64,000 nucleotides of DNA, from assembly GCA_973895155.1 (NCBI GenBank), contig OZ316891.1, forward strand, positions 25,295,899 through 25,359,898. The letters are read 5' to 3'. Position numbers and translations under genes: made by a program. This document shows, piece after piece, positions 222 to 46,299 of the stretch. The notes below the pieces were generated by a model that ran no database searches, was not told the DNA's origin, and saw only the letters and a list, made by a program, of their open reading frames with translations. Source of the stretch: Marsupella aquatica. Its lineage: Eukaryota; Plantae; Marchantiophyta. Within the stretch, counting starts at the first letter, position 1; each line of letters starts with the position of its first letter.

Positions 222-1844
222 CTAGCTTCTACTATCAACGACCATAGTGTCCATCATTGCATTTTGAATGATTCGTCTTGTTTGTACAAGGAGAGTACTA
301 TTTGCCAATAACGCAAAGTTATACGCATAAACGACAGTTTCTGCTAGGGACAATTCATCCTCCAATACTTTGCTAGACAAAGCTTCTTTCTCCGGATAAT
401 ATTTGCCTTCAATTGCAAACTCCTCTTTCGAATCCATTGCATACCAAGTGATTTTAATTTGCTCGGGGATGTCGTTAATTTTTGTGAGAATCTTAGTCAC
501 TTTTGCCATCAAGAATGGTCTTCCTGTTGGATCCTAATGGCCTGCTACACATATCATTGCAAATTTAGTATTCACCTCTAGATCCTTGAAGTCTCCAATT
601 TCTGTGACTTTTCTTCAACTTCTAGAATACATGACTGTCCTCACACCCGCTATTTTATCAACCAAGATAGGTTCCATTGCTCCTCCCGTAGGATTGGTCG
701 TAGGTTCCCTCTGTACGTTTACCTTGGGCCAACTCAAATCAAAACTCCATTGTGCAGGTTTCAGGTGGTGCTGAATCACTTCTTTTTGTTTGTCAAAAAA
801 ATGACCCCACCATAGCCGATCTTTGTCGTCAAAGTAATTGAATCCATCTTCAATTGCTCTCTGATACTTTTGAAGAGTCAAAAAATGATTTTGTGCCGCC
901 CGCTCGTCTTGTTCCTCAGTATCATTCTCTTGATCATCATTGTCTTCTGTCGCTCCTGTGGCCGACTTCAATGTCATTTGTGGTGCGACCCACATTCCAG
1001 ATGAAGGAATGTACCGAACAAATTCCACGGGCTCCCCCCAATCAGTTGTCGTTGAAAGATGTTTGGCATGGAAGACAGACCGAGCACTTCCATCTTTGAG
1101 TACTCTCGTAATCCAAAATTGTTTCTGAGCACTTATGTTGTGGAGAGTACGCAAAACCTGACCATCCATGTTGTTGTCATTTGCTTGATCCTTGTCAGAC
1201 ACAAAGTTTTTGAAATCGGCAACCTCATCGACAAAAAATATATTTGCCGTAGGATTGTAGGATTCCTCTATGATTGCGGAAAGAGTGTCCAACCAAAAAG
1301 CTTTTTGCTTGTTCAATTTTGAAGAAAACTTGCTAAATATTTGATCAATTTGATCATGGGTGTGCCCCACCAACAGAAAACCAACCTTTATTTTTTGGAA
1401 AACACCTATCTCCACCAACATGTTCAAATATGTCATAAGATATTTATTCTTGTTTTCCTGAGCAGTTATCAAGCTGGAGGTAAAGCATTGGAGGAAGCGG
1501 ACCTTCACATGTATTCAAAATATGCTAAATAACTTGGATGGTCAGGTTGCTATCATTGTGAATATTTGGATAGTTCAAAAAAACATTTGAACTCAATTCT
1601 TTGTTGAAGATCAAACAACCCACTACGTGCGGGACTACGTGTACAGGGATGAAATACTTCTCATCCATATTCTTCGGACACCGAATGAAATGAGGTAACT
1701 CTGTCTTATTTTGATCCATTCCATCAATACAAATACCCAAATATATCTCCGGACTCTTGTAACATTTGCTCCGGTGCTTTGCTAACTTCTCCCTCTCCAT
1801 TGCTTGTGCCTTCCGATGCTCGTTTAGCAATGTTGAGAATTTTC
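222..1844 (-). pseudogene. DUF7869/Sola-like DDD transposase copy 1, 3' exon (frameshifts and stops)
   Basis: Motifs GICIDGMDQNKT, ENKNKYLMTYL and FLLVGHTHDQIDQIFS across ORFs 1525-1830, 615-1508 and 222-512. Splice acceptor TTGTAG at 1850-1845 is at the same codon position as the intron in copy 2. Confidence 0.75.
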
Positions 1845-2109
1845 CTACAATAATAAAAATGTTTAGGACTTTGCTGGCCAGACAACGATAAATTTATGGG
1901 GTTCAGTATTCAAACACTTGATTTGATAACCATAATGTTAAACCGTGACAACAATAAATTTATCGGGATAAGTATTCAAACTGTTCAAATGATATATTCA
2001 CACACATTGACTCTCCCGTTGGTCACCCCTAGCCGCCGACGCTTAGCACGCCCTAACCCTAATTGTGTTCTCTCCCCCGGCGTCCTTACTTCCAGCCTCG
2101 GCCCGGGTG

Positions 2110-2519
2110 ACCTTGTAGCACACCCTCTGTTACTCCAAAGAAAGATTTATCGGGGTGTAACTTGAGACCTACCTCTCTACATCTCTTGAAGGTTTTCCTG
2201 AGGTATTTAGCATGTTTCGATGCCTTCCCAAATACTACAAAGTCATCAATGAAGATTTCCATGAATTTTCTCAAGTAGTCATAAAAAATGTTCACCATTA
2301 ATCGTTGGAACATAGTTGGTGCGTTACAGAGTTCAAATGGCATACGATTGAAGACATAGATCCTCCATTCCATGATGAAGGCTGTCTTGATTTGGTCCTC
2401 TTGCCTAATCCTGATTTGGTTATAACCAGAGTACCCATCCATGAATGAGTATAGTTCATGACTGGCTACCATGTCTAACACCATATCAGTAAAGGGTCAA
2501 GGAAAATGATCTTTCAATG
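2110..2519 (-). pseudogene. Ty3/gypsy reverse transcriptase fragment
   Basis: SFMDGYSGYNQI, MPFELCNAPTMFQR and FIDDF RT motifs. Confidence 0.85.
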
Positions 2520-4187
2520 TGTCAAACACTTGTCAAGGAGCTTAAGCGGCTTTTCTCCCCAAAAGACTACCTAATACCTGCTCCATATCATACCAGGGTC
2601 ACAAAGGATTGACAAAACTTCTGAAATGTGCCTACAATGACTAATCACTCCATACATAAGTAGTTTTAACTCTCCACTTCTAGAGAGGTAGTCCCCTTGA
2701 CTACTTTTGTACTCACACCCTTCCCCTCTCCTCTACTCCAAGGATCAGCAAGGGGGATCTCCGCTCCAAGCTGTCACCTTAGAGAAGAGTCTCACACAAA
2801 CACCCAAGAACCAAAGTACTTTCCTCTTCAAGCTTAAGTCTCCTCAAGACCCTCAAAGTAGTGTTACCCCTCAACCTTGCCCCCCTGCCCTTTGTTTGGG
2901 TCCACACATCCCCTTTGAGCTCTAGAGAAGGCTCCTCTATCTAAGGACTCTTCCTCTTGTTCTTACTTCTTGTTAACACCACACACCAAGCAAAATACTT
3001 TCCACCCTCAAGCTATAATCCTCTCTAAGTCTCAAAGTAGTGCTCTATCTTAACCTTGCCTCTTGGCCTTGGTTTTGTACTAGCACATCCCCTTCAAGCT
3101 TAGACCAAGATTACATCATAGCATGGACTCTTCTCTTGCTCTCATATGCTTCAAATGCACTCACACTTAATGGTCACAATGAAGATTGGCAAGTCTCCTT
3201 TTATTGCATCACCTTTACAACAAAAGTTCACTACAAATTCTCCACACTAAGCATGGACCACCTCTCCCTTCTCAAGCTTAGCCCTACCTTGGCAAGGTAG
3301 AGATTCCACTTAAGAGATGAGACTCCCGGTCCCTAACAAAGGAAAACTTTCTCCTTATATACTATTCTCCTTCCACACCACACCAAGCTTGACCTGAGGT
3401 CCAAGTACTCCTCCCCCAAGTCCTCCTAACACACAAAGTCCAACTCGATAGTTTGTAGCTCACTCTACAACCTATTGCTTGACTCCTTCCAAGCCCTGGA
3501 ATATGCCACACATGAGTTGCATGCTTTGACCTCCAAACCTGCTCTCACTTATGGTCCTCCTCACCAGCTTCCCAACCCACTTGAAAGCTCGCAAAAAGAG
3601 TGAGTGAGTCTCAAGTTGTGTCATGTCAAAGTTGGCTCCTTATTTACTAGTCCTTACTTACTACCCCGACCTATCAACTTACTTTCCTTACCCTAACGGC
3701 CTTGCACCTTTACCCTGAGGTACTCTCTTCTCCATGTATCCTAACTTGGGTGACACGGGTGCAAGAAGTGTCGGCCTAAAAACTTGGTCTTACTTCCCCC
3801 ATGCCGACTCCCATTTGCAAGCTACGGGGACCCCACGTGGCCTCCGCTAAAAATATATTTGAGTGATTATTTTTCTGGGTTTCCACCTTCATCAAGGGGT
3901 GCCTTACCTTCCCCTAACTCAGCACAAAAAACTTTGGGCCCCAACGGATACCCCTAGCCAAAGTTATGCCCATTCTCCCAAGGCCTATTTTTGGTCCTTA
4001 CCCCTCTCCTCCTCTGGTCTTCCCCTGTTGGTCACCCCTAGCCGCCGACGCTTAGCGCGCCCTAACCCTAATTGTGTTCTCTCCCCCGGCGTCCTTACTT
4101 CCGGCCTCAGCCCGGGTTCCATAGTCACCCTTAATTGTTTATATTTTCCTTGTTTTTGTTCCTATACTAAGGTGTTTCCAGGGTACA
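2520..4187. mobile_element. LTR-like non-coding insertion; its 4022-4117 segment is duplicated at about 2014-2108
   Basis: TGTCA...GTACA ends, about 95-bp near-identical direct repeat, adjacent gypsy RT fragment; no TSD found. Confidence 0.45.
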
Positions 4188-4214
4188 CTCCTGCTTTACC
4201 ATGTAAACCGGGCT

Positions 4215-4472
4215 AGTGATTCCTGGCTAGGCATCACAATTCCTTAGACAGAAATTATCACAACAGGGATACTTATAAATTTCTTTCATTTTGTTTCTAT
4301 TCAATTTATCATTTATCACATTGTCTATCCTAGTAATTTGATCTCTATCGTTTTTACTAGGCTCATTTGACTTCTCTATAGCCTGAAATCCGATGATAAC
4401 ATTGGCATTTTTGGGTCCTTCAGGTACCTCGTGAATAGATGCATCACTCTCTACTGAGCTACCATCCTCCAT
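4215..4472 (-). pseudogene. Probable 5' part of transposase copy 1, separated by the gypsy-derived insertion
   Basis: ATG at 4472, ORF MEDGSSVES...YKYPCCDNFCLRNC (Cys cluster), same strand as and upstream of the core. Confidence 0.45.
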
Positions 4473-4679
4473 ATATCTCCTTGACGCATTTAGAGGGGCA
4501 CTGAAAAGGCGACTATAACTATTAACACACTGACGGACCAAACGAGAAGTGTGACTACACTTCTCATTTTGCACGCGGCGAAAAAAGTTTCTAAGGCAAA
4601 AAAGTCTTGGATACGGAATTAGTATTCCCACTAAAAACTAGTTTTTCGAATTGAAAAAATGGGAAAAATTGACACGAAT

Positions 4680-5415
4680 ACGAAGATGGGATACAGCGTA
4701 TCCCATTTCGGATCCAACCGCGGAATTCCAAAAAAAAAAGCAACGTAGTAAAAGTGCCGATATTGGTTTAACCGACAAGAATATTCCAAAACAATTCTTC
4801 TCAACGGTAATATTTAACCGTCTGCGATGCAACTACAATCAAATACTAACCACGGTCAGTGAGAAAACTATAAATAGGAGATCATCGCTTGAGAATTTTA
4901 CGCTCATTTTTTCTCGTTCTGTGTACTCTTACTCTTGATGAATGCATACCGTCTATACAAACTCGTATTCCCCAAAAATCAGTTTTGACGAACAGGTGAG
5001 AATCTTCCTGAAATGGCGAGGACAAATCCCAAATGGGATACGGCGTATCCCGTTTGGGATTCAACCCTAAAATTTCAAGTTTTTGTTTTACATTAGCTAA
5101 AAAAGGAGGTTGGATGCAAAGTGGGATACGGGGTATCCCATGTCGCATCCAACCTCCGAATATGAAGTATCGTAGACTCCAAATATCAAAACCTCAACGT
5201 TGAATGCAAAATGGGATACGGCGTATCCCGTTTGGGATTCACTCTTCAAATGTCCAATTTGATTTCTCTTTAGCTAAAAAAGGAGGTTGGATGCAAAGTG
5301 GGGGTATCCCATGTCGCATCCAACTTACGAAAATGAAGCATCTTAGACTCCAAATGTCAAAACCTCAACGTTGAATGCAAAATGGGATACGGCATATCCC
5401 GTTTGGGATTCACTC
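4680..5415. repeat. Palindromic repeat family A, cluster 1 (core TGGGATAC-N3-GTATCCCA)
   Basis: Cores at 4687, 5034, 5122, 5212, about 5299 (partly deleted) and 5383; arms extend as TTGAATGCAAA...TTCGCATTCAA; about 88-90 bp spacing. Confidence 0.9.
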
Positions 5416-6114
5416 TTCAAATGTCCAGTTTTGATTGTCCATGTGGTATTTACCTAGAGTTTATTTGAATGATGGGAAAAACCTTATGGATTACTGATTG
5501 TTTTGCAGGCAAAGTTCAACTGAACTGTACGCACAAGCTCTTGCTGCCTTTCAGTGACCGACACCCACTCAAGCTTAAGCTTTCCTTGAAAAACAAAGTT
5601 TTCTCTTGTGAATCTAATGGCGGTCCAGAATCAAAACCTTGAGAAACGTGCTCGTCGATTGTATAAGCGATTAGTTGCACTCAAAGTTCTTTGTCCTGGC
5701 TTAGGCGCGCTATGGACGGGAGGCGTGGATCCACATGATAGTTTGAATCCACTCCAAATTGAGTTTTGTGAAAAAAATGAGGACGTAGTTCTGATTCAGT
5801 CGAGGATATGTTTGAGTGGTTGTCTGCACTCTGTTAATTCTTCTTGTAACTATTGTCGTGATGCCCAAAACAAATATCATCGATTGGCATATTTTTGTTG
5901 TCGGATTTGGAACAAAGATCCTTGGGTTAACTTATCGTGTTGAATTTTCTTGATTAGTGTGTAAGTGTTTAGGTGAACGTTCTTGGGTCAAACATTTTGT
6001 GAATATATTTTTCTTTTGATCAAAGAAATAAAATCAGTTTTTCCATCACTATTTTGTAGGTTGCTGAGAAAGAGCTCACCATCTCATTTATTACTCCAGG
6101 TATCCACTCTTGGA

Positions 6115-6951
6115 ATGGCAGTCACTGAGAACCCTGTCTTTACAAGGTTAGCGATGTCATTCGACAAAGAGAAGAAACAAATTCAACAAAAAAGTGGCCA
6201 AAGGGAATCCAGATTGCTTTTGGATGGATTTCCTGATGAGATTGTTGAAACGTTCATTTGGCCCATTTTGAAAGTTTGTTGTATAGAGGATGAGTTTGAT
6301 TCCTCCAAGAACCAAGCTGATGAAAGATTGATGCGATTAAAAACCATGGTGTGGCTTGGATGCACCTTCAAGAAATGGAATCAGCTCGTAATTTGTACAC
6401 GAGTCTGGGGTATTCTTAGACTAGCAAAAAGCCAGCTTGAGGAAGTAAATGAAATGCTGACAAGCATTCCCGATGGAAAACCCCTTCAAAATGTTCATAT
6501 TGAAGCTTTTGTTAGGATGGAAACAACAAATCTTCCTCCAATCGATTTCTTAGGTTTATTTTCAAGGTCTGACCTAAATTGATTTCAAGAAGACTGGCAC
6601 AATCTTGAGAAAGATGAGCAAGCGAGGCTCTTGGAAATGTATGGGGAAGCTTCTAGTCTGGTTTAGAGTCATCTTGAATGGGCTCTTTGTAAAGACTCTT
6701 TTTAAGAATATCAACTTAGTTTATTTTGTGGCACAATTCCGAATGAATAAAGAGTTTTGTGATTACCCTTGCATCAACCCGATTTGCTACGCGTAAAATC
6801 TATTTGGTTGAATACAAGGACTTGGGGATATGCCTTATCTCTAGTCCCATCAAGAGAAAAAAATATACATAGACATCCGGACTCCAACCCTACGCTTTTG
6901 GATACACATTATCGCCTGTGGAAATCTTATAGCCTGTGGATACGAAGGTGA
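6115..6951 (+). pseudogene. Degraded ORF with an F-box-like motif, possible cargo gene
   Basis: LLDGFPDEIVETFIWPIL...WLGCTFKKWNQLV resembles the F-box LPxEI...VCKxW pattern; broken into several ORFs. Confidence 0.35.
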
Positions 6952-7143: not shown

Positions 7144-10100
7144 TGTTAGATATTGCTCTAGTCTTGTAACTCTTGTGCTAACCACAGTTAGGCTAACTCG
7201 GGTTAGGACCTAGCTAAGGTTAGCGGTAGTGCTATTGTGCATATAGCCAGGGCTGATGCCAGACCCTGGTGGAACATAGGCTCATTGTTACGGAGCTAGT
7301 TGAGAGATAGGAAGAGCTTGTGCTGTGGATGCTTGGTATGGCCGGTCGGCCTAGAGTGCAGTAAAGCTCTTGTGTGTTCCCGTGGACGTAGCCTCATGTG
7401 GAGGTGAACCACGTATCTCTCTGTGTCAACTATTCTGCGTTGGATGGTTCATGGGCTTGCCGTTGCGAATGTCGTCTATGCTCAACAAGTGGTATCAGAG
7501 CAAGCCTGGGAGGTGACGTTGAGGTGATCAAATTTTTCGTGACGTGTTGGTGACGGTTTTTCCAGCGGTTAGAGTCGGTGGATTTCACGGAGTTCTGTCG
7601 CATGGAACTTGGAGGTGTTGGGCTCAACGGATAGATCGGGGCAAGGGCTTTCCGACGGTGCAAAGAAATCTCTGAACAAAGTTCGTGGTGCGGAGGAATT
7701 CATGTTTCCATCATTCTGGATTTTTTGTGATTCGTGTACGACGGTTTTCTTCGACGGTTCTTTTGGGGGGGAACTGAGATCGTTTTCTCGACGGTGTGAG
7801 CTTTGTGGTGCGCGAGGCGTCACAACCTTTAGCTCAAATCGTAGATCGGGCAAAGCTGATCGTTTCGGTAGCTGGATTGCTACCGAGTTGTTACCGAGTG
7901 CGACGTGACGAGTGAAGGAGGCGTTCAGGTTTTTTTTTTTTTCACAAGCTATGGAGCTTGTTCTCATCTGAACCGGGTTTCTCTTCGTGACGTCCGACTC
8001 GGTGGAAGAAATGCGAAGTGCTACGGCTCAACGATTTGCTCGCGGTGAGGCGGTTGTTTTGAGCCCGGGATTGGCACTTGATGCGGAGTGAAGGCGACGC
8101 GACGGAATTTTTTTTAATTCTGCTGGAGCAGTAGACTGCGCCGGTGCAATTCGGCAACATTTCCCGTCGGCGGCGTTCACTTTCCTCACTTAAAACAGCG
8201 GCGTTCAAGGTGTGTAAACGGCTTTTTTGTTTTAAAGTCCAATCTTGGCTTAGGTTAGGGCCACTTTTGGTGTGTATGCACACCCTCCCGGCCCTTGGTC
8301 CCCCATTGTTTCCCCTTGTACGCCCGACCCCCCCCCCCCGCACCTTGTTTTCCCCTCATCCTTCAGCTGCGGCGACGAGCTGTGCAACACCGGCCGGCAC
8401 TTTTTTGCGCGCTCGTACGCCCTCCGCCATACTGTGTCGGTCGCTACCGTGGCACCGCCCTGTCATCGTATGCCCAGCCCTTTGCGGCTCTACGCCGCTT
8501 GTACGCGGCTGTACCCTCGTCCCGCCCCGACGCCAGCCATACGCCCTTCGTACCCCCGGCCCTTTACGGGTTAGTTTAGGTTTTAAGGGGCTTCAAGCAC
8601 CCCCTTTAGTGCCCACTTTTAGCCTTTTTTCCCTCTCATTAGTTTGTCCCATGTGCCGGGACCTGCCGCCCTCCGTTTTAACCGCTTGGACAGGGGGAAT
8701 TGCCCCCTGTGAGACCTGTTGTACTATGTGAGAATATTCCCGAAAAATAGAGAGCTGTTTTTTGGCCGTCCGACAAAGATTCTGTCCGCCAAACGGTAAC
8801 TTTTTTGGTTCTTTTTCGGTGAGGACGTTGCCACTGGAGTTAGCAACGCGGCGCAACGATCACATCGCGATTCCGACGACGGGTTGTACTGGGTATTTTG
8901 GTTATTCTCTGAGGTGGTCAAAACGGGGGAGTTTCCCAAGGTTTTACCCACCCCGACCAAAATTTGAATAATTTTTCCGTCGAATTTTGATTTTGATTTC
9001 GGCTTTCAGTATTGGACTCCTAGCTTCATGGGCTACGCGGCGGTGTTGAGTTTTGAGTTTTATGAGAAGTTTCGAAAAAAGACATTTTTTTGTGATTGTT
9101 TCATATGAGTGACTCGGGGGATACTGGAAGAATTGGAGTCGGTGGAGCTTCAGGATCGCGACGGTCAAACAGTGAGTCTGAGGAGGAGCTGCTACCATTT
9201 GAGGAGGAACTTGTAACACCGGTACAATCACCGGTGCGACGTGCAGTGGAGGAAGCTGTACTACTACCAGAGCTGTCGGTAGTAGGGAAGAAGAGGGAGA
9301 TGGCTAGATTTGGAGGAGTGAAGTTTGAGGTGGAGAAGTACGATGGTCGTACTGATTACTTGCTCTGGGAGAAGCAAGTGAAGGGTGTTCTACGGGCCAT
9401 GGGCTTAGCTCATCTGCTTTCATCGCGAGAGCAGTATGATGGAGAGGAGGAGATTTCTTTGAGACAGTGGAGACAGGAGTAGGTGATTGCTGTCAATGCA
9501 GTGATTCTATATCTCAAGCCGCACATCATCAAGCAGCTGGATGATTATGCGGATTGCGCGTCACTGTTCAAGGCTCTAAGAGAGAAGTACTACCGAGAAG
9601 ATGCGTCAGACCGGCTGTACAAGAAGTCTCTCTTGATGAGCCTCAGACTCAAGGAAGGGAGCAAGATGCAGGATCAGCTAGATGAGTTTGACAGTCTAGC
9701 GGTTGATCTGTCAAACCTGGGAAAAGGAGTTGAAGATGAGGATAAGGCCTTGCTTTTGCTAAGCTCCTTACCGCCGTCATATCAGGGCTTGAAACAGGTG
9801 CTCTTGTACAAAGATCTGAAGTCCATTTCGTATAATGAGGTGGTAAGCTCTTTATTGTCTGATGATGCTCAGAAGAAGCTGGGTCAATCACAGACAACAT
9901 CTTCTTCTGGCATTGCGCTGAATGTGAAAAGGGGAAGAGCAGCGCAGCGCGCGAATGGACAGAACAGGTTTAGATCTACATCACGGGGGAGATCTAAATC
10001 CAGAGGGAAATCGCAAGAGAGGAAGCCTCTTGCATGTTGGAATTGTGGCAAGCCTGGCCACATGAAAAGGGATTGTCGAGTAAAGGTCCCTACTGCCTCT

Positions 10101-32652: not shown

Positions 32653-33195
32653 TCCGTGAGGCTTCAGATCCGATTGCCGGCTACTGTGAGGCTTCAGATC
32701 TGATTGTCGGCTACCGTGGGGCTTTAGATCTGATTGCCGGCTATTGTTGGACGATGTTGGCAAGGCGCAGGTGAAGCGACGGCTCTTTTCCTAAAGAAAC
32801 GGAGCTGCCAATTCATCGTTTCAATGAAAGAAACGAGGGTCAAAGGTGTTGAATCAAGCTGCTGCCAATTCTGTGGAAGGGCTGCATTTTTCATGAAGGA
32901 AATCGACAATTTTCGGGAGCTTTTTGTGAAGGAAGTAATCGTTTTTGGGGTCAGGTGCGAGGCGACGCGCGAGGTCACCCATCCCGAAAGTGCTCACGCG
33001 AGGCGACGCGTGAGGTCACCCATCCCGAAAGTGCTCCCAACCACGAGCACGAAGTCACCCATCGCGAGCGCAGGCAGGCGCGAGGTCGAGGTCACCCATC
33101 CCGGGGCTATTCTGGGCCGTGAGCGCGCGAGGGGAGGCACGAGGTCGAGCGCGAGGAGGTCACCCATCCCGGGGCTATTCCCAGCCGCGAGCGCT
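32653..33195. repeat. Short tandem repeats in the gypsy 5' leader
   Basis: About three 30-bp units GTGAGGCTTCAGATCCGATTGCCGGCTAC, and five GAGGTCACCCATC-type motifs. Confidence 0.75.
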
Positions 33196-36260: not shown

Positions 36261-36579
36261 CCTAAATCCACACCATTGTCTTTGGCAGCATTTAGTGGTG
36301 TAATTGCTGGACCTGATGATTTGATAGAAGGTAATGCGCATGCAGCCAATGTTCCACCATTGGAGGAGTCTCATGAGGAACACATCATGCGAGGATTACC
36401 TGTTGGCAGTGTTGTGCCACCAGTGTGGGGCACTGCACAAGCCTTGCCACAGGCAGCAGCACGATTGGTACATGATGCATGGCGTCATGCTTTACCACAA
36501 TCAGGAGCAGAGCAGTCTCTTGCAGATGGACCTATGACTCTTTCCCCATTGGATACCACTCCTATTGCTTGGCAGTATC

Positions 36580-37560
36580 CACCAGAGGGTATTTGTTTGT
36601 TGGATCTTTTTGGTGGGATTAGCATTGGATTGGCTGCTGTTCTTCAGGCAGGAATTCCTGTACGTCGTTATTTATATGTGGAGATAGATGAGACAGCACG
36701 GAGGGTCTCATTGCGACATGTGGCTATGTTGGTGGATAGATATCCACAGTTGTTGCCAGTGGATGCTGTTCGTGGTTATCAGCATGCACTACCTGCTGAT
36801 ATTTCATTGTTGGGGGCGGATCATCTGCATCGTGTTGGCCCCATTGATTTGGTGATTGCTGGTTGGCCATGTCAGGGCCAATCTTGAGCTGGCGTTGGGC
36901 ATGGACTTCATGATCCACGCTCTGCATTGTTTTGGGAGATGTTACGGGTGCTACGTCATCTCCAGCTACATCAGACACAGTCTCCAGCATACATTTTGGA
37001 GAATGTGCCATTGTTAGGTGATGATCGTAGTCGGATTGTTGTCAGTGTTCATCAGGTGAGGTCTTGGATTGGACCTGCTGTGTTATTGGATGCTGCACAT
37101 GTGGGTTCTCGTGCACATCGTCCACGCTTGTGGTGGACTAATTTGATCCCATGTGAGGTGCTGAAGCGCGCATTTGACAGCATTCCACGCTCACCAGCCT
37201 TAGTGGTGGATGATATTTTGGATCTAGGGCGTCGTGCACAGGGTGTGACCCAACCTAATAGACCTCCATTGGCAATGGTCAATGCAGTTGGGTGCCCACG
37301 TTGTGCATTACCCACTCTTGTAAGCCACTCTGCTTCATATGCATTCAGAGCAGGTGGCCCTGGACTTGTGTGGGACACAGCTCTCCAACAGTTAGTGGAG
37401 CCTACTGCTGATGAGAGAGAGCGTGCTATGGGATTTTTGACTGGCACCACTGCAGTTGCCTCTATGTCAGAGGATTTGCGGCGCCAGGTTCTTGGTCAAG
37501 CAATGGACCTGAATTGTTTGACTTGGATTATCAGCTTGGGAGTAGCTGAACAGTTGCGGA
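36580..37560 (+). CDS. C5 cytosine DNA methyltransferase domain within pol (one in-frame TGA at 36885)
   Basis: Motif I LLDLFGGI, II VEID, IV AGWPCQG, VI ILENVP, VIII AHRPRLWWTN, IX ERERAMGF, X LGQAM, in canonical order. Confidence 0.92.
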
Positions 37561-37772
37561 TGCACTCTGCTGGAATTACTGATTGTCCCTTGGTGAGCTT
37601 GCGGTCCACTGAGACAGTATTGACCACAGCTGGGGGCGAGCAGACAGTCCATGGACCTATGGCAAGATTGGCCAAGGCTGGACAGATTGTTGAGCAGGAA
37701 GGGACTGCTCAATCTACTGCTAAATAGCAATCATCGGCTATCTCTTCTACCCTACAAAGAGATATTAGGGAT

Positions 37773-39593
37773 TTGGTGGAGAGTTGGGAACCACAGCTTG
37801 GCCCTAAGTTAACAGGGGAGGAGAGATGTCGCATGCATCGATTCCTGAAGAGTTATTGGAATTGTTTTGCATTCAGCATGAAGGATTTGGGGACATTGAA
37901 GGGCCCTGGTATTCAAATTGAATTGGCTAGTGATACGCCAATCTTTCGTAGATCATACCGTTATAGTGACATGGAGAGAGCTCTGATTCAAAGCAGAACT
38001 CGAGATTTATTGGAGGCTGGATTGGTGGAGATTTCATATGGGGAGTATGCATCTACCACAATGATGCCAGCCAAGAAGGATGTGCATGGCAATTACATAG
38101 ATAGGCGCATGTGTGGTGATTACAGACCTATTAATCGCCAGACAAAATCTGATCGATATGCCATGCCCACACCTGAGGAGATCTTTGATGCTGTGGGGCA
38201 TGCAAAGGTTTTCAGTTCATTGGATCTGAGCGCAGGATACCATCAGCTTCCAATTAGGCATGCTGACAGGTCCAAGACAACATTCTGGGGGATTGATTCT
38301 TATGGCAAAGATCGTTTGTATCAATGGTTATTCTTACCATTTGGGTTGAAGAATGCACCAGCTGAGTTCCAGAGAGTCATGGATCGAATCCTTGCAGGTT
38401 TGGATTTTGTCAGATGTTATATTGATGATATTTTGGTCTATTCTTCTACTGTGGAAGAACATCAACAACACTTGCAGATTGTGTTGGAGAGATTGAGAGC
38501 ACATGGGTTGAAGCTCCATCCTGGCAAGTGTAAGTTCTTCCAAGACCAGATTGAGTATTTGGGCCACACTATATACCCAGGGGGATTGGGTGTACAGCAG
38601 ACTAAAGTGGAGACCATTACACAGATTCCTCATCCTACTGATGTGAGTAGAGTTCGTGCATTCTTGGGATTGGCGAGCTACTACAGGAGGTATGTTAAAG
38701 GATTTAGCCAGCTTGCTAAACCTTTAACCATACTCACTAAGTTGGATCAGGAATGGACTTGGGGTGATGACCAAGAGCATGCCTTTCAGGAGTTGAAGCA
38801 AAGGTTGGCATCATCCCCTATTTTGAGAAGACCCATTTCAGGCAGACCATTTCAGCTACACACTGATTGGAGTGGAGTAGGACTTGGAGCAGTGCTGACT
38901 CAGAAGGATGATGAGGGGAATGAGTTTGTTGTGGCTTATGCCAGTAGATCAAACAATGCAACAGAGGCTAAGTATAGCTCTTATGAGGGAGAGTATTTGG
39001 CAGCAGTGTGGGCTGTTGCACACTTTCGTTGCTACTTGTTTGGTAACCCCTTTACCTTGATCACTGATCATCAGCCTCTTAAGTGGTTAATGGAGTCTGA
39101 CAAGCTTACAGGGAAGCTTGCACGATGGGCATTGTTGTTACAGGAGTATGATTTCCAGGTGGTGCATAGGCCTGGAAAAGTGAACTTGGATGTAGATGGA
39201 TTAAGCCGCAATCCATGTACCAGTCAGCAAGATGAGACTGGAGTCAGATGGCATGATGAGTCAGATAAGGAGATGGTGCCAGGATGGCATGCATCTACCT
39301 TTCTTTGTTGGGTGCCAGCATACAGTGGATCTGTGGACTCTACCTCATTGGATGGAGTGGATGATGAGTCTTCAGATGTAGATGTTGGTGAGGTAACTTC
39401 TGGACAACAAGATATTCACAATGATGTGAGAGTGTTGGAATATCTGCACAGTGGTTCTATTGTTGGCAGTGTTGATGCCAAGGAACGTGACAGGGTTCTA
39501 CAGAGAGCCAAGAGGTTTCGATGGGAGGGAAACCATCTTTTGAGAGTACTGCATGATGGTAGGATGTTGGTGGTACCAAAACCATCACAATGA
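37773..39593 (+). CDS. Gypsy reverse transcriptase and RNase H
   Basis: RMCGDYRPIN, LDLSAGYHQ, PFGLKNAP, YIDDIL, LHTDWS, TDHQPLKWL. Confidence 0.97.
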   Translation: MVESWEPQLGPKLTGEERCRMHRFLKSYWNCFAFSMKDLGTLKGPGIQIELASDTPIFRRSYRYSDMERALIQSRTRDLLEAGLVEISYGEYASTTMMPAKKDVHGNYIDRRMCGDYRPINRQTKSDRYAMPTPEEIFDAVGHAKVFSSLDLSAGYHQLPIRHADRSKTTFWGIDSYGKDRLYQWLFLPFGLKNAPAEFQRVMDRILAGLDFVRCYIDDILVYSSTVEEHQQHLQIVLERLRAHGLKLHPGKCKFFQDQIEYLGHTIYPGGLGVQQTKVETITQIPHPTDVSRVRAFLGLASYYRRYVKGFSQLAKPLTILTKLDQEWTWGDDQEHAFQELKQRLASSPILRRPISGRPFQLHTDWSGVGLGAVLTQKDDEGNEFVVAYASRSNNATEAKYSSYEGEYLAAVWAVAHFRCYLFGNPFTLITDHQPLKWLMESDKLTGKLARWALLLQEYDFQVVHRPGKVNLDVDGLSRNPCTSQQDETGVRWHDESDKEMVPGWHASTFLCWVPAYSGSVDSTSLDGVDDESSDVDVGEVTSGQQDIHNDVRVLEYLHSGSIVGSVDAKERDRVLQRAKRFRWEGNHLLRVLHDGRMLVVPKPSQ

Positions 39594-39602
39594 GTACATT
39601 TA

Positions 39603-40853
39603 GTGCGACATGCGCACGAGGAGTTGGGTCACTTTGGTGTGAAGCGCACTTACAGCTTGTTGCAAACACAGTATTGGTGGCGTGGTATGCACACTCATGT
39701 CCAGCAGTTGATAGCTAAGTGTGTGGTATGTGATAGAGTGAGAGCATCATTTAATGCTCCCACTCCCCAGTTGCACCCGTTGCCGATCATGGGTTTGGGA
39801 TATCGTTGGAGTTTGGATTTTGTTGGTCCATTACCTCTTACCCAACGTCATAATCGGTATGTTTTGGTCATGGTGGAGCACTTCTCCAAGTGGATTGAGC
39901 TAGTGGTGTTGCCAGATAAAGCCAGTGGAGGAGTTGCTACTACATTTTTGGATCGTGTACTCAGTCATTTTGGAGCACCAGCTGAGGTGTTGACTGATCA
40001 GGGAACTGAGTTCCGTGGAGAGTTTGAGAGTTTGTGTGAAAAAGCTCTGATTGATCATCGTACTACCTCTCGTGATCATCCTAAGGCAGATGGATTAGCT
40101 GAGAGAGTTGTGCAAACTGTGAAGAGAGGATTGCATAAGTATGGCTTGCAGGTTGGTCATCTGGGAGATTGGGATCTCCAGCTACCTTGGTTAGCTATGG
40201 GCTACTGTTTCAGTCGGCAAGCATCACTCGCATCCTTCTCACCTTACTTTTTGCTCTATGGTAGAGAGCCAGATTTGCCAGTAGCTATTCGTCGTGATGC
40301 TGCATCAGTTGTGAACTTGGATGATCTTGATGTTTGGGTCAAGGTGTGTTCAGAGAGAGCACGGGTATTTCAGCGAGTGATGCCCATGGCTTTTGACAAC
40401 CTTGCCATTGCCCAACATCGTGATACTTTGAGGTATGCCACTATTCGTGGAGGAGGTTACCGTGCCAGCATTCGACGATTTCATCCTGGTGATTATGTTT
40501 ATTTGCAGCAGACAACACCCACCACACTTGATGTAACCGCAGGCCGGACAATCTTACGTGTGCGTGAAGTGTTGCCTTCTGGTGTCCTGATGTTGGAGGG
40601 ACGCGATGGTATGGTTTGGAAGGATCATGTGCGCAACTATGCACCATGTCACCTTCCCAACATTGATGGCACTGTAGATCCAAGTTTGGCACATGTTCGT
40701 GCTGGCTTGAAATGTATGTTGTGTGGATCTGCTCACGGAGCAGCTACTATGTTGATTTATGATCAGTGTTCTAGAGGATGGCACATGTCATGTTTGACAC
40801 CACCATTGCAGGTGATTCCTAGTGGATCATGGTTGTGTCCTCACTGTCGATGA
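39603..40853 (+). CDS. Gypsy DDE integrase with C-terminal PHD finger
   Basis: HEELGHFG...CVVC, SLDFVGPLP, LTDQGTEF, DGLAER; PHD CMLC...xDQCSRGWHMSCLTPPL...WLCPHC. Confidence 0.95.
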   Translation: MRHAHEELGHFGVKRTYSLLQTQYWWRGMHTHVQQLIAKCVVCDRVRASFNAPTPQLHPLPIMGLGYRWSLDFVGPLPLTQRHNRYVLVMVEHFSKWIELVVLPDKASGGVATTFLDRVLSHFGAPAEVLTDQGTEFRGEFESLCEKALIDHRTTSRDHPKADGLAERVVQTVKRGLHKYGLQVGHLGDWDLQLPWLAMGYCFSRQASLASFSPYFLLYGREPDLPVAIRRDAASVVNLDDLDVWVKVCSERARVFQRVMPMAFDNLAIAQHRDTLRYATIRGGGYRASIRRFHPGDYVYLQQTTPTTLDVTAGRTILRVREVLPSGVLMLEGRDGMVWKDHVRNYAPCHLPNIDGTVDPSLAHVRAGLKCMLCGSAHGAATMLIYDQCSRGWHMSCLTPPLQVIPSGSWLCPHCR

Positions 40854-41854
40854 AGCCGACTAGTTATCATTTGTGTTCTCTTGGCAGATATAGATTGCAG
40901 GTAGGTGATTGATGGGGCTCATTTGCACCCGGCCTCCTGATCTTCACACCTAAAAAGGTGTATATCAACCTTGTAGAACTCATGGCTAGCTAGAGTTAGG
41001 GGACCTTACTCCCAGCTAGGGGGGCGATTGTGGGTTTTGGACATGTGTGGACATGAGTTCCACTTGTATTCCATTCTCTTGTGTTTGTGATGTGGCAGTG
41101 TGACTATGTCTGGATGTATGTGACAAGCGATGTATGTTGTGTAGCGATATGTATGCGCACGACAGCTGTCACACCATTCTGAGTAGTGTAGGAGTGTATC
41201 ATACTATCTAGGTCCGTATGTTTGGTATATGTGCTATATGAGCTGATAAGGTTCCGTCAGGTTTGTGTGAGAGGGTACTTCTCACTTGTGAGGCATTGAA
41301 AGGTCATCTTTCAATGTTGAGCCTTGGAGAGAGAGGAGCTTGAGTGTGGCTATGGTGGCTGTGAGCTCCGCTTGTGTAACGTGGATTCCTTGAGTAGTGC
41401 AAGGTGCGTTGGCTTGACATACGTGTGTGATCGGATCGGTGCGGGATCGATGGGGTATTGTTGACTGGGATCATTGTGCCGATTGTATTGAGATTATTGT
41501 GGGTTTTGGACATGTGTGGACATGAGTTCCACTTGTATTCCATTCTCTTGTGTTTGTGATGTGGCAGTGTGACTATGTCTGGATGTATGTGACAAGCGAT
41601 GTATGTTGTGTAGCGATATGTATGCGCACAACACTGCCTATGACGGGAAGAAGGCCAGAAAAGAAGGTGAACGGAAGGTTGAGAAGGAACCATCGAGCGA
41701 CATCAGTCAGTCTGACTCGCTAACCAGTCCAAGAAAAACATCAGGTATTACTCGATTCCTTTCGCACTGCATAGTGGTTTCATTTGGAACTACATCTTGG
41801 CTGGGTTTGCTAACATAGTACTGAACCAATTTCGGGGTCGTTGAGATAGACTGC

Positions 41855-42030
41855 ATCTCATCTCGGCGAGGCTCGCTGAGAACAAACAAGTTTCAGTCGC
41901 ATCTCGTTCGAACCCTTGGATCTCATCTCGGCGAGGCTCGTTGAGAAGAATAGCCAAATGTCGTCCGGACCTTTGCAGATGAAGTATAATGTCAAGTGTC
42001 TGGATATCATGTCGGTGAGGCTCGCGGAGA
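41855..42030. repeat. Family B palindromes inside predicted intron 41745-42071
   Basis: ATCTCGGCGAGGCTCGCTGAGA-type copies near 41860, 41925 and 42010. Confidence 0.8.
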
Positions 42031-43844
42031 AGCTTAGGATCAATAACCCCATTGCTTTGCAATCTATCCAGGTATGAAGGAGATACCGGAGGAACCAGGT
42101 TCTGTAAAAAGCAAGGCTGTAGAAGTGGCTTCAAAGCCAATTATAGAGAAGGCTCCACAGCCAACAATAGAGTCGGCTACAGAACCAACTGCAGAACCAA
42201 CGATAGAGCCGGCTACACTACAACAAGGCAACCAGCAAGTGGAGCAACAAAGCGTGCAGCCTTCGATAGAGCCAATGGTAGACCAGCCTCTGGACCAACA
42301 AAGCAAGCAGGAACAAGAGCATGATGCATCCCAAGGAGAGAACGCAACCCAAGGAGGGGATCATTCAGACGACGTACGGGTAGATAACGAAGGAGAAGAT
42401 GAACGGGTAGAGGACGAAGGAGAAGACGAACGGGTAGAGGACGAAGGAGAAGACAAACAAGAGGGGTGTGAGTCTGATACTCCGGCGCCAAAACGGATGC
42501 CATTATCCTCAAGGCCAAAGACAAAGGCTGCAAAAAAGACCAAAACAACGAGGCCCAAACCTCACCGCGCAAAAGCACGTGACACTGAGCTTGAAGACAT
42601 TCCGCCCAGCCCCATAGAGCAACCCCCGCCTAGCACCATACCACAACCCCCGCCCAGCCCAATAGAGGTTCTGCCCACGACAATCCAACATGAGGCCCCA
42701 ATGGATGGCCCAAATTACGAAGAGGACGTTGAAGGCGAACCGGAGTCGGATGGCACAGAGGTGGTTGGAGTTCGGCGTTCAAGCGCCGATAACTTTTCTT
42801 CCCCGCTCAGGCATTGTTATTTTAAATGGTCTCCGTATCTTTTCAAAACTTACTTTGACGCTGCCAATGACAGTAAAGAACCGGCTGTGGTACTCCGTAA
42901 CTTTAGAGACTAGTGTAGAAAGCTTAGGCGGGGTGGTTTGGCTGTAGAAGGCTGGCTAAAGAACGGGAAGCCTGCAAGGTCTGGTGCAAATCTGATTCTG
43001 ATTCAAATGGGATCAGACACCCGCATGCACGCGGATGGGACCATCCCATTGTGGAATTTGTTCCGGCCAGACGACCTCAATCGGGTTGAGGATTTTGCGC
43101 GAGTTTTCCTCGATGATGAGGGATTGTTTGGCATAGTGCACAGTGCTTCGGTTGCCCACTCCGCAGTACTTTGTGACAGTCTCAATTACGAAGAGACCAA
43201 TTGGGTGCTGAAAGACACCTTTTTCATCTGGAACGCCACACCCACCTTCGACTTCACGACTCGAAAGTGGGTAAGTCTAATAGATTTAACTCCATTCTTG
43301 TCTTATGTTCTTTCGATGACTTGTACTCAGAAAGACTCATCACTGACTTTGTTCTATACGTCCAGAGTGAATATCTCAAGCTGGACCTTTGGGGATTTAA
43401 ATCGTCTGCCGAGGTATGCCCAAAGGATGACGTGAAGCCAATCAGTGTCGAGCTTGATATGAAGTTGAGGAACGGGCTAACTAACTATACAACGGGTCAG
43501 AATGAGACCATTGATGATTTTGGTGGCACCTTGTCTCCAGCTACACTCCAATGTATAATAGAATATACAACTAAGCCAGGGGAACTGTTGTCACGTTCAA
43601 TGCACACTTCGGGGCTATCTTTAAGGCTGGTGAGAACTGTGGGCGGATGGTCTTTGGGACCGAATCCTATCCGTACTTCAAATCTTATGCGGAAGACACG
43701 ATGACAGAGTTCGTTGGAGTGCCTCTAACGGAGCAAGAGGAGGCAATGGATCGTCGAAAATCCAATCCAGAAAAGCGCAAGAATAAAAAGCCTTCATGTG
43801 AGTTTACTACCGTTTCCCTTCAATGATTTTAATATTGTCCCATA

Positions 43845-44420
43845 GTATTTCAGCGGACTCTCCGAGATGGCTCTCCATCTGGGCAAATCCATCTCGGCTG
43901 ACCTCTTCGAGATGCATGTCGGCCGGCCTAGCCGAGAGGATCGCATCTGGCCCGGGCACTTTGAGATTTGCTGGAAAGTCCCTCTCAGCTGGCCTCTCCG
44001 AGATGCATGTCGGCGGGCCTCGCCGAGAGGAATCGCATCTGGCCCGGGCATATTCAGATTTCCAGGCAAGTCCATCTCGGCTGGCCTCTCCAAGATGCAT
44101 GTCGGCGGGCCTCGCCGAGAGGAATCGCATCTGGCCTGGGCATATTCAGATTTCCAGGCAAGTCCATCTCGGCTGGCCTCTCCGAGATGCATGTCGGCGG
44201 GCCTCGCCGAGAGGAATCGCATCTGGCCCGGGCATATTCAGATTTCCAGGCAAGACCATCTCAGCGGGCCTCTCTAAGATGCATTCAGCGGGCCTCGCCC
44301 AGATGAATCCCGGGTGGCCTGGCCACGTCAACTTCTACTGGCAAGTCCACGTAGGGCCTTAGATGCATCTGGAGGGACAAAAATACATCTTGGCTAGCCT
44401 CTCTGAGATCTATCTCGAAA
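43845..44420. repeat. Family B tandem array of about 92-bp units, two palindromes per unit, in predicted intron 43798-44539
   Basis: Equivalent positions at 43909, 44000, 44092 and 44184. Confidence 0.9.
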
Positions 44421-44856
44421 GGCGACTCAATGGATTATCTGGGGTGTCCACATCGGCTCACTTGCCTCACAAATTTGTTCTTGTGATCCGTCTATTCCGG
44501 CGCAATACATGATTCGATTTAAGTATAACTTAGTAGCAGTTCCCGACAGGACCACCGAGTCGGCAACCGAGGAATGGGACACACAGGACAGACGACTTGT
44601 GAAGCTCGCTTGGGAGGAAGCTTCGGCATTATTCTCTCCGGAGAAGTCAAGCCTACCGTGCTACGCTGATACGTATCATGAAGAAAGAGTTGCTCATTTT
44701 GTGAAAGAGAGAACAAGGAAGACTCTCAAATTTGTCGATGATAGGGCAGAAGAGGCTGAATCGGATGAGAGTAGCTCGGTAGGAAGTGATAGTGATAGTC
44801 TCCAAACTCACCATGCAAGCATAAGTTTGTCAAGCTCCAATTCCGAAGAGTAATTT

Positions 44857-45681
44857 TTGGGTGAATTTACCTTCATTGCAGCTCAGAAGCAAACTGAGCC
44901 ACAACAACCAGTCGACAAGGTAGTGACTGCCCAGCAAGGAGTCAATCAGGGGGTGCCTGTGCACCAACGACCAAATCAGGGGGTGCCTGCACAACGACAT
45001 CAACCCGCCATACTTGCGACCATAGTCAAAGAAGCATTGGACTCCAACAGGGACCAAGATGAAGTCCTAGTCAGCCTCGGCGACTTAAAATTGAAGAGAA
45101 AAGATTTCAAATGCTTGAGGGCAAAAAAATGGCTCACTTGTGACATCATCAATGCTTACATTCCTCTATTGGAGCGTAGAGCAGAGGTCATTGCAAAACC
45201 CAAATGCATGCTTTTGCCCACACATTTTGACAATGTCTTGACGCATCCTGCGTACAGCTTCAACACAGCGTTGGCATTTGTGAAGGGCATTGACGTCTTT
45301 TCATTCGACCTCATTCTAATCCCCATCCACAGGCCAAAACATTGGGTACTAGCTGTGGTCGATTTTACTTTGCAGCAACTACATTTGCTCGATCCCATTG
45401 GAGGCGAAGCATCGGAATGCGACAATTTGGTGAATGTCGGTCGGTTTCTCCATGACCTGTCCCGCTTGCGCAGTTGTCCCCACTTATCGCCATTACAATG
45501 GCAACGCATCGTCCGCGACAATATTCCAGCCCAACCCGATAGTTACAATTGTGGAGTATATGTCATAATGTACATGGAGCGTCTTTCTAGAGGCTCTATA
45601 TTGGCGGTTGACCCTAAACATGTACTGCTTATACGACAAAAGATTATTGTAGACCTAATCTGCCAGATGATCAGTTTGTAG
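44857..45681 (+). CDS. Ulp1/C48 protease domain of gene B
   Basis: WLTCDIINAYI, LIPIHRPKHWVL, LLDPIG, AQPDSYNCGVYV. Confidence 0.92.
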   Translation: MGEFTFIAAQKQTEPQQPVDKVVTAQQGVNQGVPVHQRPNQGVPAQRHQPAILATIVKEALDSNRDQDEVLVSLGDLKLKRKDFKCLRAKKWLTCDIINAYIPLLERRAEVIAKPKCMLLPTHFDNVLTHPAYSFNTALAFVKGIDVFSFDLILIPIHRPKHWVLAVVDFTLQQLHLLDPIGGEASECDNLVNVGRFLHDLSRLRSCPHLSPLQWQRIVRDNIPAQPDSYNCGVYVIMYMERLSRGSILAVDPKHVLLIRQKIIVDLICQMISL

Positions 45682-45982
45682 ATAGAGGATCGATGGATTG
45701 CCTTTGTGAATTCAATTTGTGAATATTTCACAACAGAGCAACATGTTGTATACGAAGTAAAATAAAAATTTCCTCCAAAGGTTATTTTCTACGCTGGACC
45801 CCGTGTTGTTCTTCAATGTCATGCCGAGCTCTCCTGGATAAGTCGGCGAGGGTCTTTGAGATGAGTCTTTGAAAGGGACGTGTTGTATGGACTCTGTTGT
45901 ACGATGTGTTGTATGGATCCTTTTTGAGATTTAGTAGCGACACCCCATGATATATCGAAGACCCTGTGTGAGAAGTTTTTTT

Positions 45983-46045
45983 TTTCCTCGAATTTCAGTT
46001 GAATCTCGGCGGGGCTCGCTGAGATTCAACTGAACTTCGAGGAAA
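45983..46045. repeat. Extended family B hairpin
   Basis: 25-bp arms with one mismatch around the core GGCGGGGCTCGCT. Confidence 0.85.
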
Positions 46046-46299
46046 TCTCAGAGAGGCCGCCAAGATTGAAACTTTATATTCTCCTTTAATGTCAGAGAGG
46101 CAGCCGACATAAGAAATGGTCGAAGTAAAGTACCCGATCCAACCTCAAAGAGGCGCCGACAATGGCGCGGACTGCGATTGGGTTGTGGATTGGGTTGTGC
46201 CCCAGAAGAATTCATCTCAGCTGATTCGCTGAGTTCCGGTGTTGGACTGATATCAGTCACTGATGAAACTCACTGATAACTGATGAAGTACACGACCCC

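What the first reader, a model, noticed from the sequence alone, without database searches (positions are those of the whole stretch)
222..46299. Candidate large DNA transposon system: DDD transposase + ParB-methyltransferase-SUMO protease fusion + module-specific palindrome arrays, present twice
Seen: with younger insertions removed, the backbone reads Tnp(-), palindromes A, ParB-MTase-Ulp1(+), Tnp(-), palindromes B, ParB-MTase-like-Ulp1(+). The two fusion genes are strongly diverged yet share domain order, and each sits among its own palindrome family. Known: Ulp1 capture occurs in Mutator-like (KAONASHI) and Zisupton elements, and ParB-MTase fusions occur in prokaryotic mobile elements. Inference: this is a family of large eukaryotic elements that carries its own DNA-marking and deSUMOylating, possibly anti-silencing, toolkit. 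I do not know of this combination being described.
Basis: partly seen in the sequence, partly recalled or inferred. Interest (0 to 1): 0.88.

Follow-up and report, generated by a model that had tools for sequence, protein, structure and literature searches.

The report
Plant transposon relics carrying ParB-methyltransferase genes
This stretch holds broken, many-copy plant DNA transposon relics that pair a Sola-like transposase with a bacterial-style ParB-plus-DNA-methyltransferase gene, SUMO-protease-like genes and two private sets of palindromes, which likely let the element find and mark its own DNA, a design recently noted in algae but never tested.

Summary
The parts are real. There are two DUF7869 (Sola-like, DDD) transposases that are 54% identical, 14 copies of palindrome A and 26 of palindrome B in separate zones (0 of 40 in my modelled exons), and two Ulp1-type proteases. 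Gene A is a ParB/sulfiredoxin-fold plus beta-class N6/N4 methyltransferase with relatives in Chara and Ginkgo. Gene B is only a weak, motif-level look-alike with a degenerate active site. All coding parts are broken, but the backbone is multi-copy. An independent contig links this transposase family to the same methyltransferase and a related palindrome. (1) The Ulp1 fusion is doubtful for A: close relatives stop where A stops, and none carries Ulp1. (2) The 'two units' are different families, and transposase 2 is cut off from module B by a solo LTR with unmatched flanks. (3) No termini or target-site duplications were found. The core design (Sola1 + ParB-methyltransferase; ParB + palindrome arrays) is published for brown and red algae. 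New here, as far as my searches reach: a plant family with Ulp1 cargo and family-specific palindromes. Verdict: new variant of a known kind.

The parts
222..4637 (-). Transposase 1 (DUF7869, Sola-like DDD), broken. N-terminal exon with CCxxxC near 4230-4471, core and C-terminus 222-1893, middle exon lost
   Evidence: Pfam E 6e-28; tblastn to L004
2012..4189 (-). LTR-retrotransposon remnant (RT fragment, 97-bp repeats) inside transposase 1; ends approximate
4675..5414 (.). Palindrome A, 5 copies upstream of transposase 1
5977..6582 (+). Multi-copy ORF of unknown function; F-box-like by eye only, no Pfam hit
7144..13900 (+). Copia insertion, 344-bp LTRs 98.8% alike, TSD CCTGA, inserted inside a palindrome A copy
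13901..14268 (.). Palindrome A, 5 copies upstream of gene A
14312..17859 (+). Gene A: ParB/sulfiredoxin-fold domain, helical region, beta-class amino-methyltransferase (DIPY, DLCAGSG), acidic tail; intron ~16273-16748 holds 4 palindrome A copies; several stops and frameshifts
17959..19536 (+). Ulp1-A (Peptidase C48; His, Asp, Gln, Cys motifs present), spliced, with an in-frame ATG at 17959; interrupted by a MITE
18018..18655 (.). 638-bp MITE, 18-bp TIR, TSD TCTC, inside Ulp1-A
   Evidence: empty-site joint in runs X4 and X5
19591..24956 (-). Copia insertion, identical 138-bp LTRs, TSD GACTC, in the last codons of transposase 2
24957..26981 (-). Transposase 2 (DUF7869), 5'-truncated; its C-terminal frame continues left of the copia and meets the Ulp1-A 3' end
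26982..27785 (.). Very high-copy solo LTR with unmatched flanks; probable deletion joint
27885..29955 (.). Palindrome B, 10 copies upstream of gene B
30014..43826 (+). Gene B: ParB-like motif (FDGNHR), long helical exon, acidic linker, degenerate MTase-like end; GT-AG introns, one holding 3 palindrome B copies; split by the gypsy element; broken
   Evidence: weak homology only
32065..41633 (+). Gypsy insertion with C5 DNA-methyltransferase-like segment, PHD finger and split repeats; TSD CTGC
43882..44409 (.). Palindrome B array in 92-bp tandem units; possibly an intron between gene B and Ulp1-B
44407..45681 (+). Ulp1-B (SENP1/2-like; His, Asp, Gln, Cys motifs present), one in-frame stop upstream of the domain
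   Evidence: Pfam E 1.5e-20; SENP2 E 3e-23
45840..46045 (.). Palindrome B, 2 copies downstream of Ulp1-B

Best explanation
The region is a pile of broken copies of large plant DNA transposons whose Sola-like transposase travels with a ParB-fold/amino-methyltransferase accessory gene, and that protein likely binds its own family's palindromes and likely methylates adenine nearby to mark the element as self. SHOWN: the domains of gene A, the palindromes and their exclusion from modelled exons, multi-copy status, and the transposase-MTase-palindrome link in a second, unrelated contig. INFERRED: (1) a dimer of the ParB-like part reads the two half-sites, each family with its own palindrome (about 65%); (2) the MTase then writes 6mA rather than 4mC on the element, keeping its promoters usable or marking it for the transposase (about 45%); (3) Ulp1 is added cargo, most likely a separate reading frame in module A, that would remove SUMO from the element's proteins or local silencing factors (about 35%); (4) module B is a distant cousin cassette whose MTase has probably lost catalysis and which reached its place beside transposase 2 through a deletion at the solo LTR. 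On layout, transposase 1 and gene A share palindrome A and appear joined head to head, while gene A/Ulp1-A meets transposase 2 tail to tail, as in L002. The family may occur in clusters that give both junctions; the true ends were not found.
For: Gene A profile hits. AlphaFold model of homolog P0011 (pLDDT 78) matches CcrM (Z 23.9, rmsd 2.6, 217 aligned) and, over residues 98-234, the ParB-like PadC (Z 9.1, rmsd 2.5, 95 aligned), with KorB (Z 8.1) and sulfiredoxin (Z 7.4) next. Catalytic DIPY and SAM-binding DLCxGxG motifs are conserved in close relatives. Homologs are named from Chara braunii and Ginkgo biloba. L002 has the transposase (53% to Tnp1) then the MTase (50% to gene A) on the other strand, 476 bp apart, with GCGAGAC-CG-GTATCGC palindromes between them and in the transposase intron; L004 and L005 carry related GATAC/GTATC palindromes beside their transposases. 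Contigs of 5 runs from 4 studies cover the laid backbone stretches with up to 31 variant contigs at one site; nearly all lack the stop at 16932. Synonymous sites are saturated while pN is 0.28-0.36, so the genes were long under selection. The same design is described in algae.
Against: No binding, methylation or expression data. No TIR/TSD found, so transposition as one unit is not shown. Only 1 of 9 transposase loci shows the MTase; the others are short or show other sequence. Summed contig depth is not a copy number (tool caveat). The ParB fold was shown on a homolog, not on the window's broken gene, and its Z of 9.1 is modest. Gene B's assignment rests on motifs. Sola membership could not be tested against a reference sequence.
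Confidence: 0.68

Rival explanations
1. One reading: two parallel units [Tnp(-), palindromes, ParB-MTase-Ulp1 fusion(+)], each making one three-domain protein.
For: In-phase splice options exist. A: GAG|GT at 17853 to CAG| at 17970, a 118-bp intron. B: a consensus GTGAGT donor at 43798 and AG acceptors at 44533/44536/44539, which would put the palindrome array in an intron like the other arrays. Only 100 bp separate the A stop from the Ulp1 ATG, little room for a promoter. Transposase 1 and gene A share palindrome A, and no element end showed between them in the listed loose ends.
Against: Five close protein relatives (P0001, P0002, P0004, P0005, P0012) end in register with A's stop after a D/E-x-x-x-x-L-x-x motif, and L002 and Ginkgo P0010 end within a few residues. 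0 of 49 MTase hits scanned have Peptidase_C48, and 0 of 171 stored proteins match the window's Ulp1 pieces; many of these are intron-unaware predictions, which weakens this. L002 has no Ulp1 after the MTase. A's donor is weak. Transposase 2 is cut from module B by an unmatched solo LTR. Genes A and B are not detectably homologous.
Confidence: 0.2
2. The real unit is convergent: [palindromes, gene A ->, Ulp1-A ->, <- transposase 2], and transposase 1 with its upstream palindromes is the end of a neighbouring element whose accessory gene lies left of the window.
For: After removing the copia, transposase 2's frame runs into the Ulp1-A 3' end, leaving little room for two termini. L002 is convergent. 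A copia-free joint 19573->24956 exists in one X2 contig. Depth over transposase 2 resembles module A more than B in X4 and X5.
Against: That joint has only 30 letters on its short side and does not reach Ulp1 coding sequence. Transposases 1 and 2 are only 54% identical, yet palindrome A flanks transposase 1 and none lies in or near what is left of transposase 2. Joints 4673->5639 and 5138->5472 and continuous depth tie transposase 1's upstream region to the sequence leading to gene A. Depth is inflated over conserved genes.
Confidence: 0.35
3. The palindromes are binding sites for the transposase (subterminal-type repeats), and the ParB-MTase is passive cargo or acts elsewhere.
For: Related palindromes sit in transposase introns and just downstream of transposase genes in L002, L004 and L005. 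Many DNA transposons have internal transposase-binding repeats (recalled).
Against: In the window the arrays cluster upstream of and inside the ParB-like genes, including introns far from any plausible end, and switch sequence with the accessory gene. The same ParB-palindrome pairing is reported with an unrelated Plavaka transposase.
Confidence: 0.17
4. A chance heap of independent repeats in a transposon-dense region.
For: The window is almost all nested elements; no shared termini were found; at least one junction (26982) is a rearrangement.
Against: The transposase-MTase-palindrome link recurs in L002, the palindromes track the genes, and the same design is known in algae.
Confidence: 0.06

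Closest known systems
Sola1-1_Ec32 of Ectocarpus (PMC12477816; passages and one supplementary table row read, figure not seen)
   Same: Sola-type DNA transposon with an accessory gene on the strand opposite the transposase, encoding a ParB-like domain plus an N4/N6 DNA methyltransferase; proposed to bind and modify its own sequence.
   Different: Brown alga; 21.5 kb with 282-bp TIRs and 4-bp TSD, whereas no ends were found here. The passages read mention no palindrome arrays or Ulp1. I could not compare sequences.
Plavaka elements of Bostrychia with PAG2/PAG3 (10.1101/2025.02.11.637652; passages read, supplements closed)
   Same: ParB-like accessory gene beside tandem arrays of inverted repeats; a PF01555 methylase on the same element; self-binding proposed.
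   Different: EnSpm/Plavaka transposase; ParB is fused to a 2OG oxygenase and the methylase to SET, in separate genes; 'Ulp1' has 0 occurrences in the main text.
Kaonashi MULEs (PMC6117577, passages) and Zisupton (Ulp1 content recalled; F-box content from PMC12062965 passages)
   Same: Peptidase C48/Ulp1-like cargo on DNA transposons.
   Different: Other transposase superfamilies; no ParB-MTase. The Kaonashi proteases are described as barely expressed and unlikely to act on SUMO.
Beta-class amino-methyltransferases: CcrM, M.BceJIV, bdelloid N4CMT, Marchantia DN4MT1
   Same: Fold and motif order.
   Different: MpDN4MT1 has TSPPY (10.1101/2021.02.12.428880, passages); gene A has DIPY, which points to N6-adenine but does not prove it. 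Gene A is fused to ParB and transposon-borne.
VANDAL/VANC anti-silencing (as cited in 10.1101/2025.02.11.637652 and PMC12973397, passages)
   Same: A transposon accessory protein acting on the element's own motif arrays; the functional analogy for what this may work like.
   Different: Unrelated protein; causes loss of methylation; experimentally shown, unlike this case.

Membership tests
Sola (Sola1) DNA transposons | DDD transposase | tested here: met
   CIDGMDQ, QLDN and GHTHDQID aspartates are conserved across 12 aligned sequences and readable in both window copies. Which three are catalytic is inferred.
Sola (Sola1) DNA transposons | Sequence affinity to reference Sola1 transposases | not testable with these tools
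   No named Sola reference was returned. Pfam gives DUF7869; equating it with Sola1 is recalled, plus an unchecked earlier AI note.
Sola (Sola1) DNA transposons | Terminal inverted repeats and 4-bp TSD (PMC10741241) | tested here: inconclusive
   None found in the backbone; one end may lie outside the window and the copies are rearranged.
ParB-like + N4/N6 MTase transposon accessory genes (Ectocarpus type) | ParB/sulfiredoxin-fold domain N-terminal to the MTase in one protein (gene A) | tested here: met
   Contiguous profile match; homolog P0011 matches PadC Z 9.1 and CcrM Z 23.9.
ParB-like + N4/N6 MTase transposon accessory genes (Ectocarpus type) | Linked to a transposase on the opposite strand | tested here: met
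   Window (both neighbours) and L002.
ParB-like + N4/N6 MTase transposon accessory genes (Ectocarpus type) | Same architecture in gene B | tested here: inconclusive
   phrog_1033 ParB-like E 0.023; 4 of 500 and 25 of 500 shuffles score as high; single-sequence model pLDDT 39.
Beta-class amino-methyltransferase | Catalytic motif IV before SAM-binding motif I, both intact (gene A) | tested here: met
   DIPY then DLCAGSG; PF01555 above cutoff.
Beta-class amino-methyltransferase | Intact motifs in gene B | tested here: not met
   The aligned positions read LIQMG and TFNAHFG; the alignment itself is weak.
Beta-class amino-methyltransferase | Methyl transfer to DNA; N6-A versus N4-C | not testable with these tools
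   Needs an enzyme assay.
Ulp1/SENP (C48) proteases | C48 domain with His-Asp-Cys triad and oxyanion Gln | tested here: met
   motifs read in both copies.
Ulp1/SENP (C48) proteases | SUMO specificity | not testable with these tools
   C48 also includes deNEDDylases (PMC6117577).
Kaonashi MULE / Zisupton-KDZ | MULE or KDZ transposase domain | tested here: not met
   Pfam finds only DUF7869 in the transposase pieces and in 8 related transposases.
Bacterial ParABS | ParA ATPase partner | tested here: not met
   No ATPase hit among the 57 ORFs scanned. This lowers 'is a ParABS system', not 'reads palindromes like ParB'.
Bacterial ParABS | Sequence-specific, CTP-dependent loading at palindromes | not testable with these tools
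   Needs binding and CTPase assays.

The most novel reading that the evidence does not exclude
A plant transposon family, still abundant in its host, encodes a ParB-type clamp that loads at family-specific palindromes and carries an active N6-adenine methyltransferase, coupled by splicing or co-expression to a SUMO protease. It would write a private bacterial-type mark on its own DNA while stripping SUMO-dependent silencing, with reader and palindrome diverging together between families (A, B, L002-type).
Probability: 0.22. Interest if true: 0.85.

Novelty: new variant of a known kind. Interest (0 to 1): 0.5.

Why it matters
Only VANDAL elements are shown to modify their own chromatin (as stated in 10.1101/2025.02.11.637652). 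The ParB-methyltransferase idea raised for algal elements is untested. This family gives it a sharp test in plants: several families with different palindromes (A, B, L002/L004, L005), an MTase with intact motifs in other copies, and a dead-looking cousin as a control. If true, it would be a transposon-encoded, sequence-addressed source of 6mA or 4mC in plant genomes, and a parS-like reader working in a nucleus. The copies in this window are dead, and the core design is already in print.

Tried and rejected
No whole genome is held, so genome-wide co-occurrence and end mapping could not be run. Gene B homologs: none among longer proteins; the Atlas had no usable hit for the MTase-like piece and did not answer for the ParB piece; plasmid tblastn gave only E 0.3; viral contigs none; NCBIfam none; Pfam at E 5 gave only DUF1015 E 0.09. 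The single-sequence fold of B was unusable and was not searched. Transposase searches of viral and prokaryotic contigs found nothing, nor did the MTase in prokaryotic genomes or palindrome A in viral contigs. The 5 viral MTase loci are stand-alone 221-245-aa ORFs at 23-26% identity and say nothing about this element. No solved structure resembles the transposase by sequence. No RNA holder was listed, so splicing was not tested. The idea that the two palindrome A arrays are arms of a TIR was rejected: they align equally well in both orientations and the flanks do not match. CpG o/e (0.35-0.79) did not separate backbone from young insertions. Bao 2009, Yuan and Wessler 2011 and Iyer 2014 were not held. 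Only 49 of the 150 listed MTase hits were Pfam-scanned. Identity with Marchantia DN4MT1 was considered and set aside on the catalytic motif; no sequence comparison was made.

Full report
Observation. The window is a nest of plant-type repeats. Self-comparison and LTR inspection delimit two copia elements with perfect 5-bp TSDs, a gypsy element with a 4-bp TSD, an LTR remnant inside transposase 1, a solo LTR and a MITE. Both minus-strand genes are DUF7869 proteins with the motifs CIDGMDQ, QLDN and GHTHDQID. They are 54% identical over 358 codons with saturated synonymous sites, so they are two old families, not one element twice. Palindrome A occurs 14 times, only in 4688-16634, and palindrome B 26 times, only in 27885-46003; shuffles give means of 0.02 and 0.08. 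None of the 40 lies in my exon models, which cover 63% of the 20.6-kb backbone.

Gene A. The MTase exon finds 233 representatives at E<=0.001. The long ones carry an N-terminal domain that matches window 15343-16251. A profile of 23 such sequences hits gene A in two blocks that are contiguous in the profile, so the palindrome array between them is an intron. Named members come from Chara braunii and Ginkgo biloba. A model of the intact homolog P0011 gives a beta-class amino-methyltransferase (CcrM Z 23.9) and a ParB/sulfiredoxin fold at residues 98-234 (PadC Z 9.1, KorB Z 8.1, sulfiredoxin Z 7.4). The catalytic DIPY and SAM-binding motifs are intact. This copy has several stops and frameshifts; the stop at 16932 is absent from nearly all laid contigs.

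Gene B. It has clean GT-AG introns, a ParB-like FDGNHR motif and an end that aligns loosely with the SAM-binding region but lacks the key residues. Statistical support is thin: phrog_1033 E 0.023, 4 of 500 shuffles as high for the ParB part and 25 of 500 for the MTase part, and nothing by hhalign or database search. I call it a probable distant cousin with a dead active site, not a shown homolog.

Is Ulp1 fused? Both Ulp1 domains are real and keep their catalytic motifs. For A, an in-frame 118-bp intron is possible, but the donor is weak, an in-frame ATG opens the Ulp1 frame, and five close protein relatives stop in register with A, with L002 and Ginkgo ending within a few residues. No C48 domain was found in 49 of 150 listed hits scanned by Pfam, or in any of 171 stored proteins by phmmer; many of these are intron-unaware predictions. 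For B, a consensus donor and three in-phase acceptors would splice out the 92-bp array, which fits the habit of arrays sitting in introns. I put fusion at about 25% for A and 50% for B.

Is it a mobile unit? No genome is held. Contigs from 5 runs of 4 studies were laid on 13901-32062 (X2, X4, X5, X6) and 4100-7210 (X2, X3, X4, X5). All 30 bins are covered in each run, with many variant contigs per site (up to 31), so the backbone is multi-copy; summed depth is not a copy number. Of 9 metagenome loci with the transposase, 5 are close relatives. Only L002 runs far enough to show the next gene: the gene A-type MTase on the opposite strand, tail to tail, with no Ulp1, and with its own GCGAGAC-CG-GTATCGC palindromes. 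L004 and L005 carry related palindromes that keep the GATAC/GTATC core of palindrome A with a 2-base spacer. The link of transposase, MTase and palindrome is thus independent of this window.

Layout. Transposase 1 shares palindrome A with gene A, and joints in other copies tie its upstream region to the sequence leading to gene A, which supports a head-to-head unit. But Ulp1-A ends where transposase 2's frame ends, like L002, and transposase 2 is cut at the solo LTR, whose flanks do not match and beyond which its N-terminus is absent. Its pairing with module B is therefore not established. The copia-free joint at 19573->24956 is one contig and does not reach Ulp1 coding sequence. No TIR with TSD was found. 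The ends remain open.

Mechanism. Most likely the ParB-like part binds the family's palindrome as a dimer (inferred from the fold, the twofold symmetry, the intronic and promoter placement, and the change of palindrome between families). The fused enzyme would then methylate adenine on the element (DIPY favours N6; the Marchantia N4 enzyme has TSPPY), keeping it expressible or marking it for mobilisation. Ulp1 would add removal of SUMO. None of these steps is shown.

Known systems. Sola1-1_Ec32 carries a 1104-aa ParB-like + N4/N6 MTase gene opposite its transposase, with self-modification proposed (PMC12477816, passages; table row). Bostrychia Plavaka elements have a ParB-like gene beside inverted-repeat arrays and a PF01555 gene (10.1101/2025.02.11.637652, passages). 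Ulp1-like cargo is known in Kaonashi MULEs (PMC6117577, passages). Iyer 2016 describes other ParB-linked eukaryotic N6-MTases (PMC4738411, passages). Full-text searches (listings and abstracts seen) returned no paper joining a Sola-type transposase, ParB-MTase and Ulp1 in plants; subscription journals, Repbase reports and unseen supplements are not covered. Earlier AI notes from this scan describe similar ParB-palindrome transposons in other eukaryotes; they are unchecked and are not counted as support.

Verdict. A real but decayed example of a recently described, untested kind of transposon, extended to a plant lineage and with Ulp1 cargo: new variant of a known kind, interest 0.5.

Noticed in passing
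window 32065-41633: Gypsy element with a C5 DNA-methyltransferase-like segment before RT (PF00145 only E 0.011, motifs by eye), a PHD finger after integrase (E 2e-8) and split repeats (B...A-B-A, 99% alike). This fits KnitGypsy-Dnmt3 of Klebsormidium (PMC5890265, passages; 'PHD' has 0 occurrences there) and may extend that type to another plant lineage.
   Followed up: partly
window 5977-6582 (+): Multi-copy ORF between the palindrome A arrays; F-box-like by eye, no Pfam, PHROG or NCBIfam hit of note. Possibly a further accessory gene.
   Followed up: partly
window 18018-18655: 638-bp MITE with 18-bp TIR and 4-bp TSD TCTC; empty sites seen in two runs; superfamily not determined.
   Followed up: partly
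window 7132-7143 and 13901-13938: The copia element inserted inside one palindrome A copy; the arms rejoin across it.
   Followed up: yes
window 26982-27785: Solo LTR with depth about 50-100 times its flanks and unmatched flanks; a likely recombination scar.
   Followed up: partly
window 46270-51818 (-): LINE remnants (RT, endonuclease, DUF4283 ORF1) right after the last palindrome B; they may hide the right end of module B.
   Followed up: no
window 52672-52828, 53834-53995, 54111-54143: A 56-bp-arm hairpin, a 26-bp tandem array and a TAGCGGG repeat.
   Followed up: no
window 56395-57963 and 58986-64000: A second copia remnant, a 549-aa ORF with coiled-coil tail and no Pfam family, and a gypsy-type gag at the window end.
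   Followed up: no
L008 3228-3449: A more distant DUF7869 transposase followed by a 25-bp tandem array of self-complementary units, a different palindrome family.
   Followed up: no
protein P0006 (Chara braunii GBG86584.1): Annotated protein holding two ParB-MTase units in tandem.
   Followed up: no
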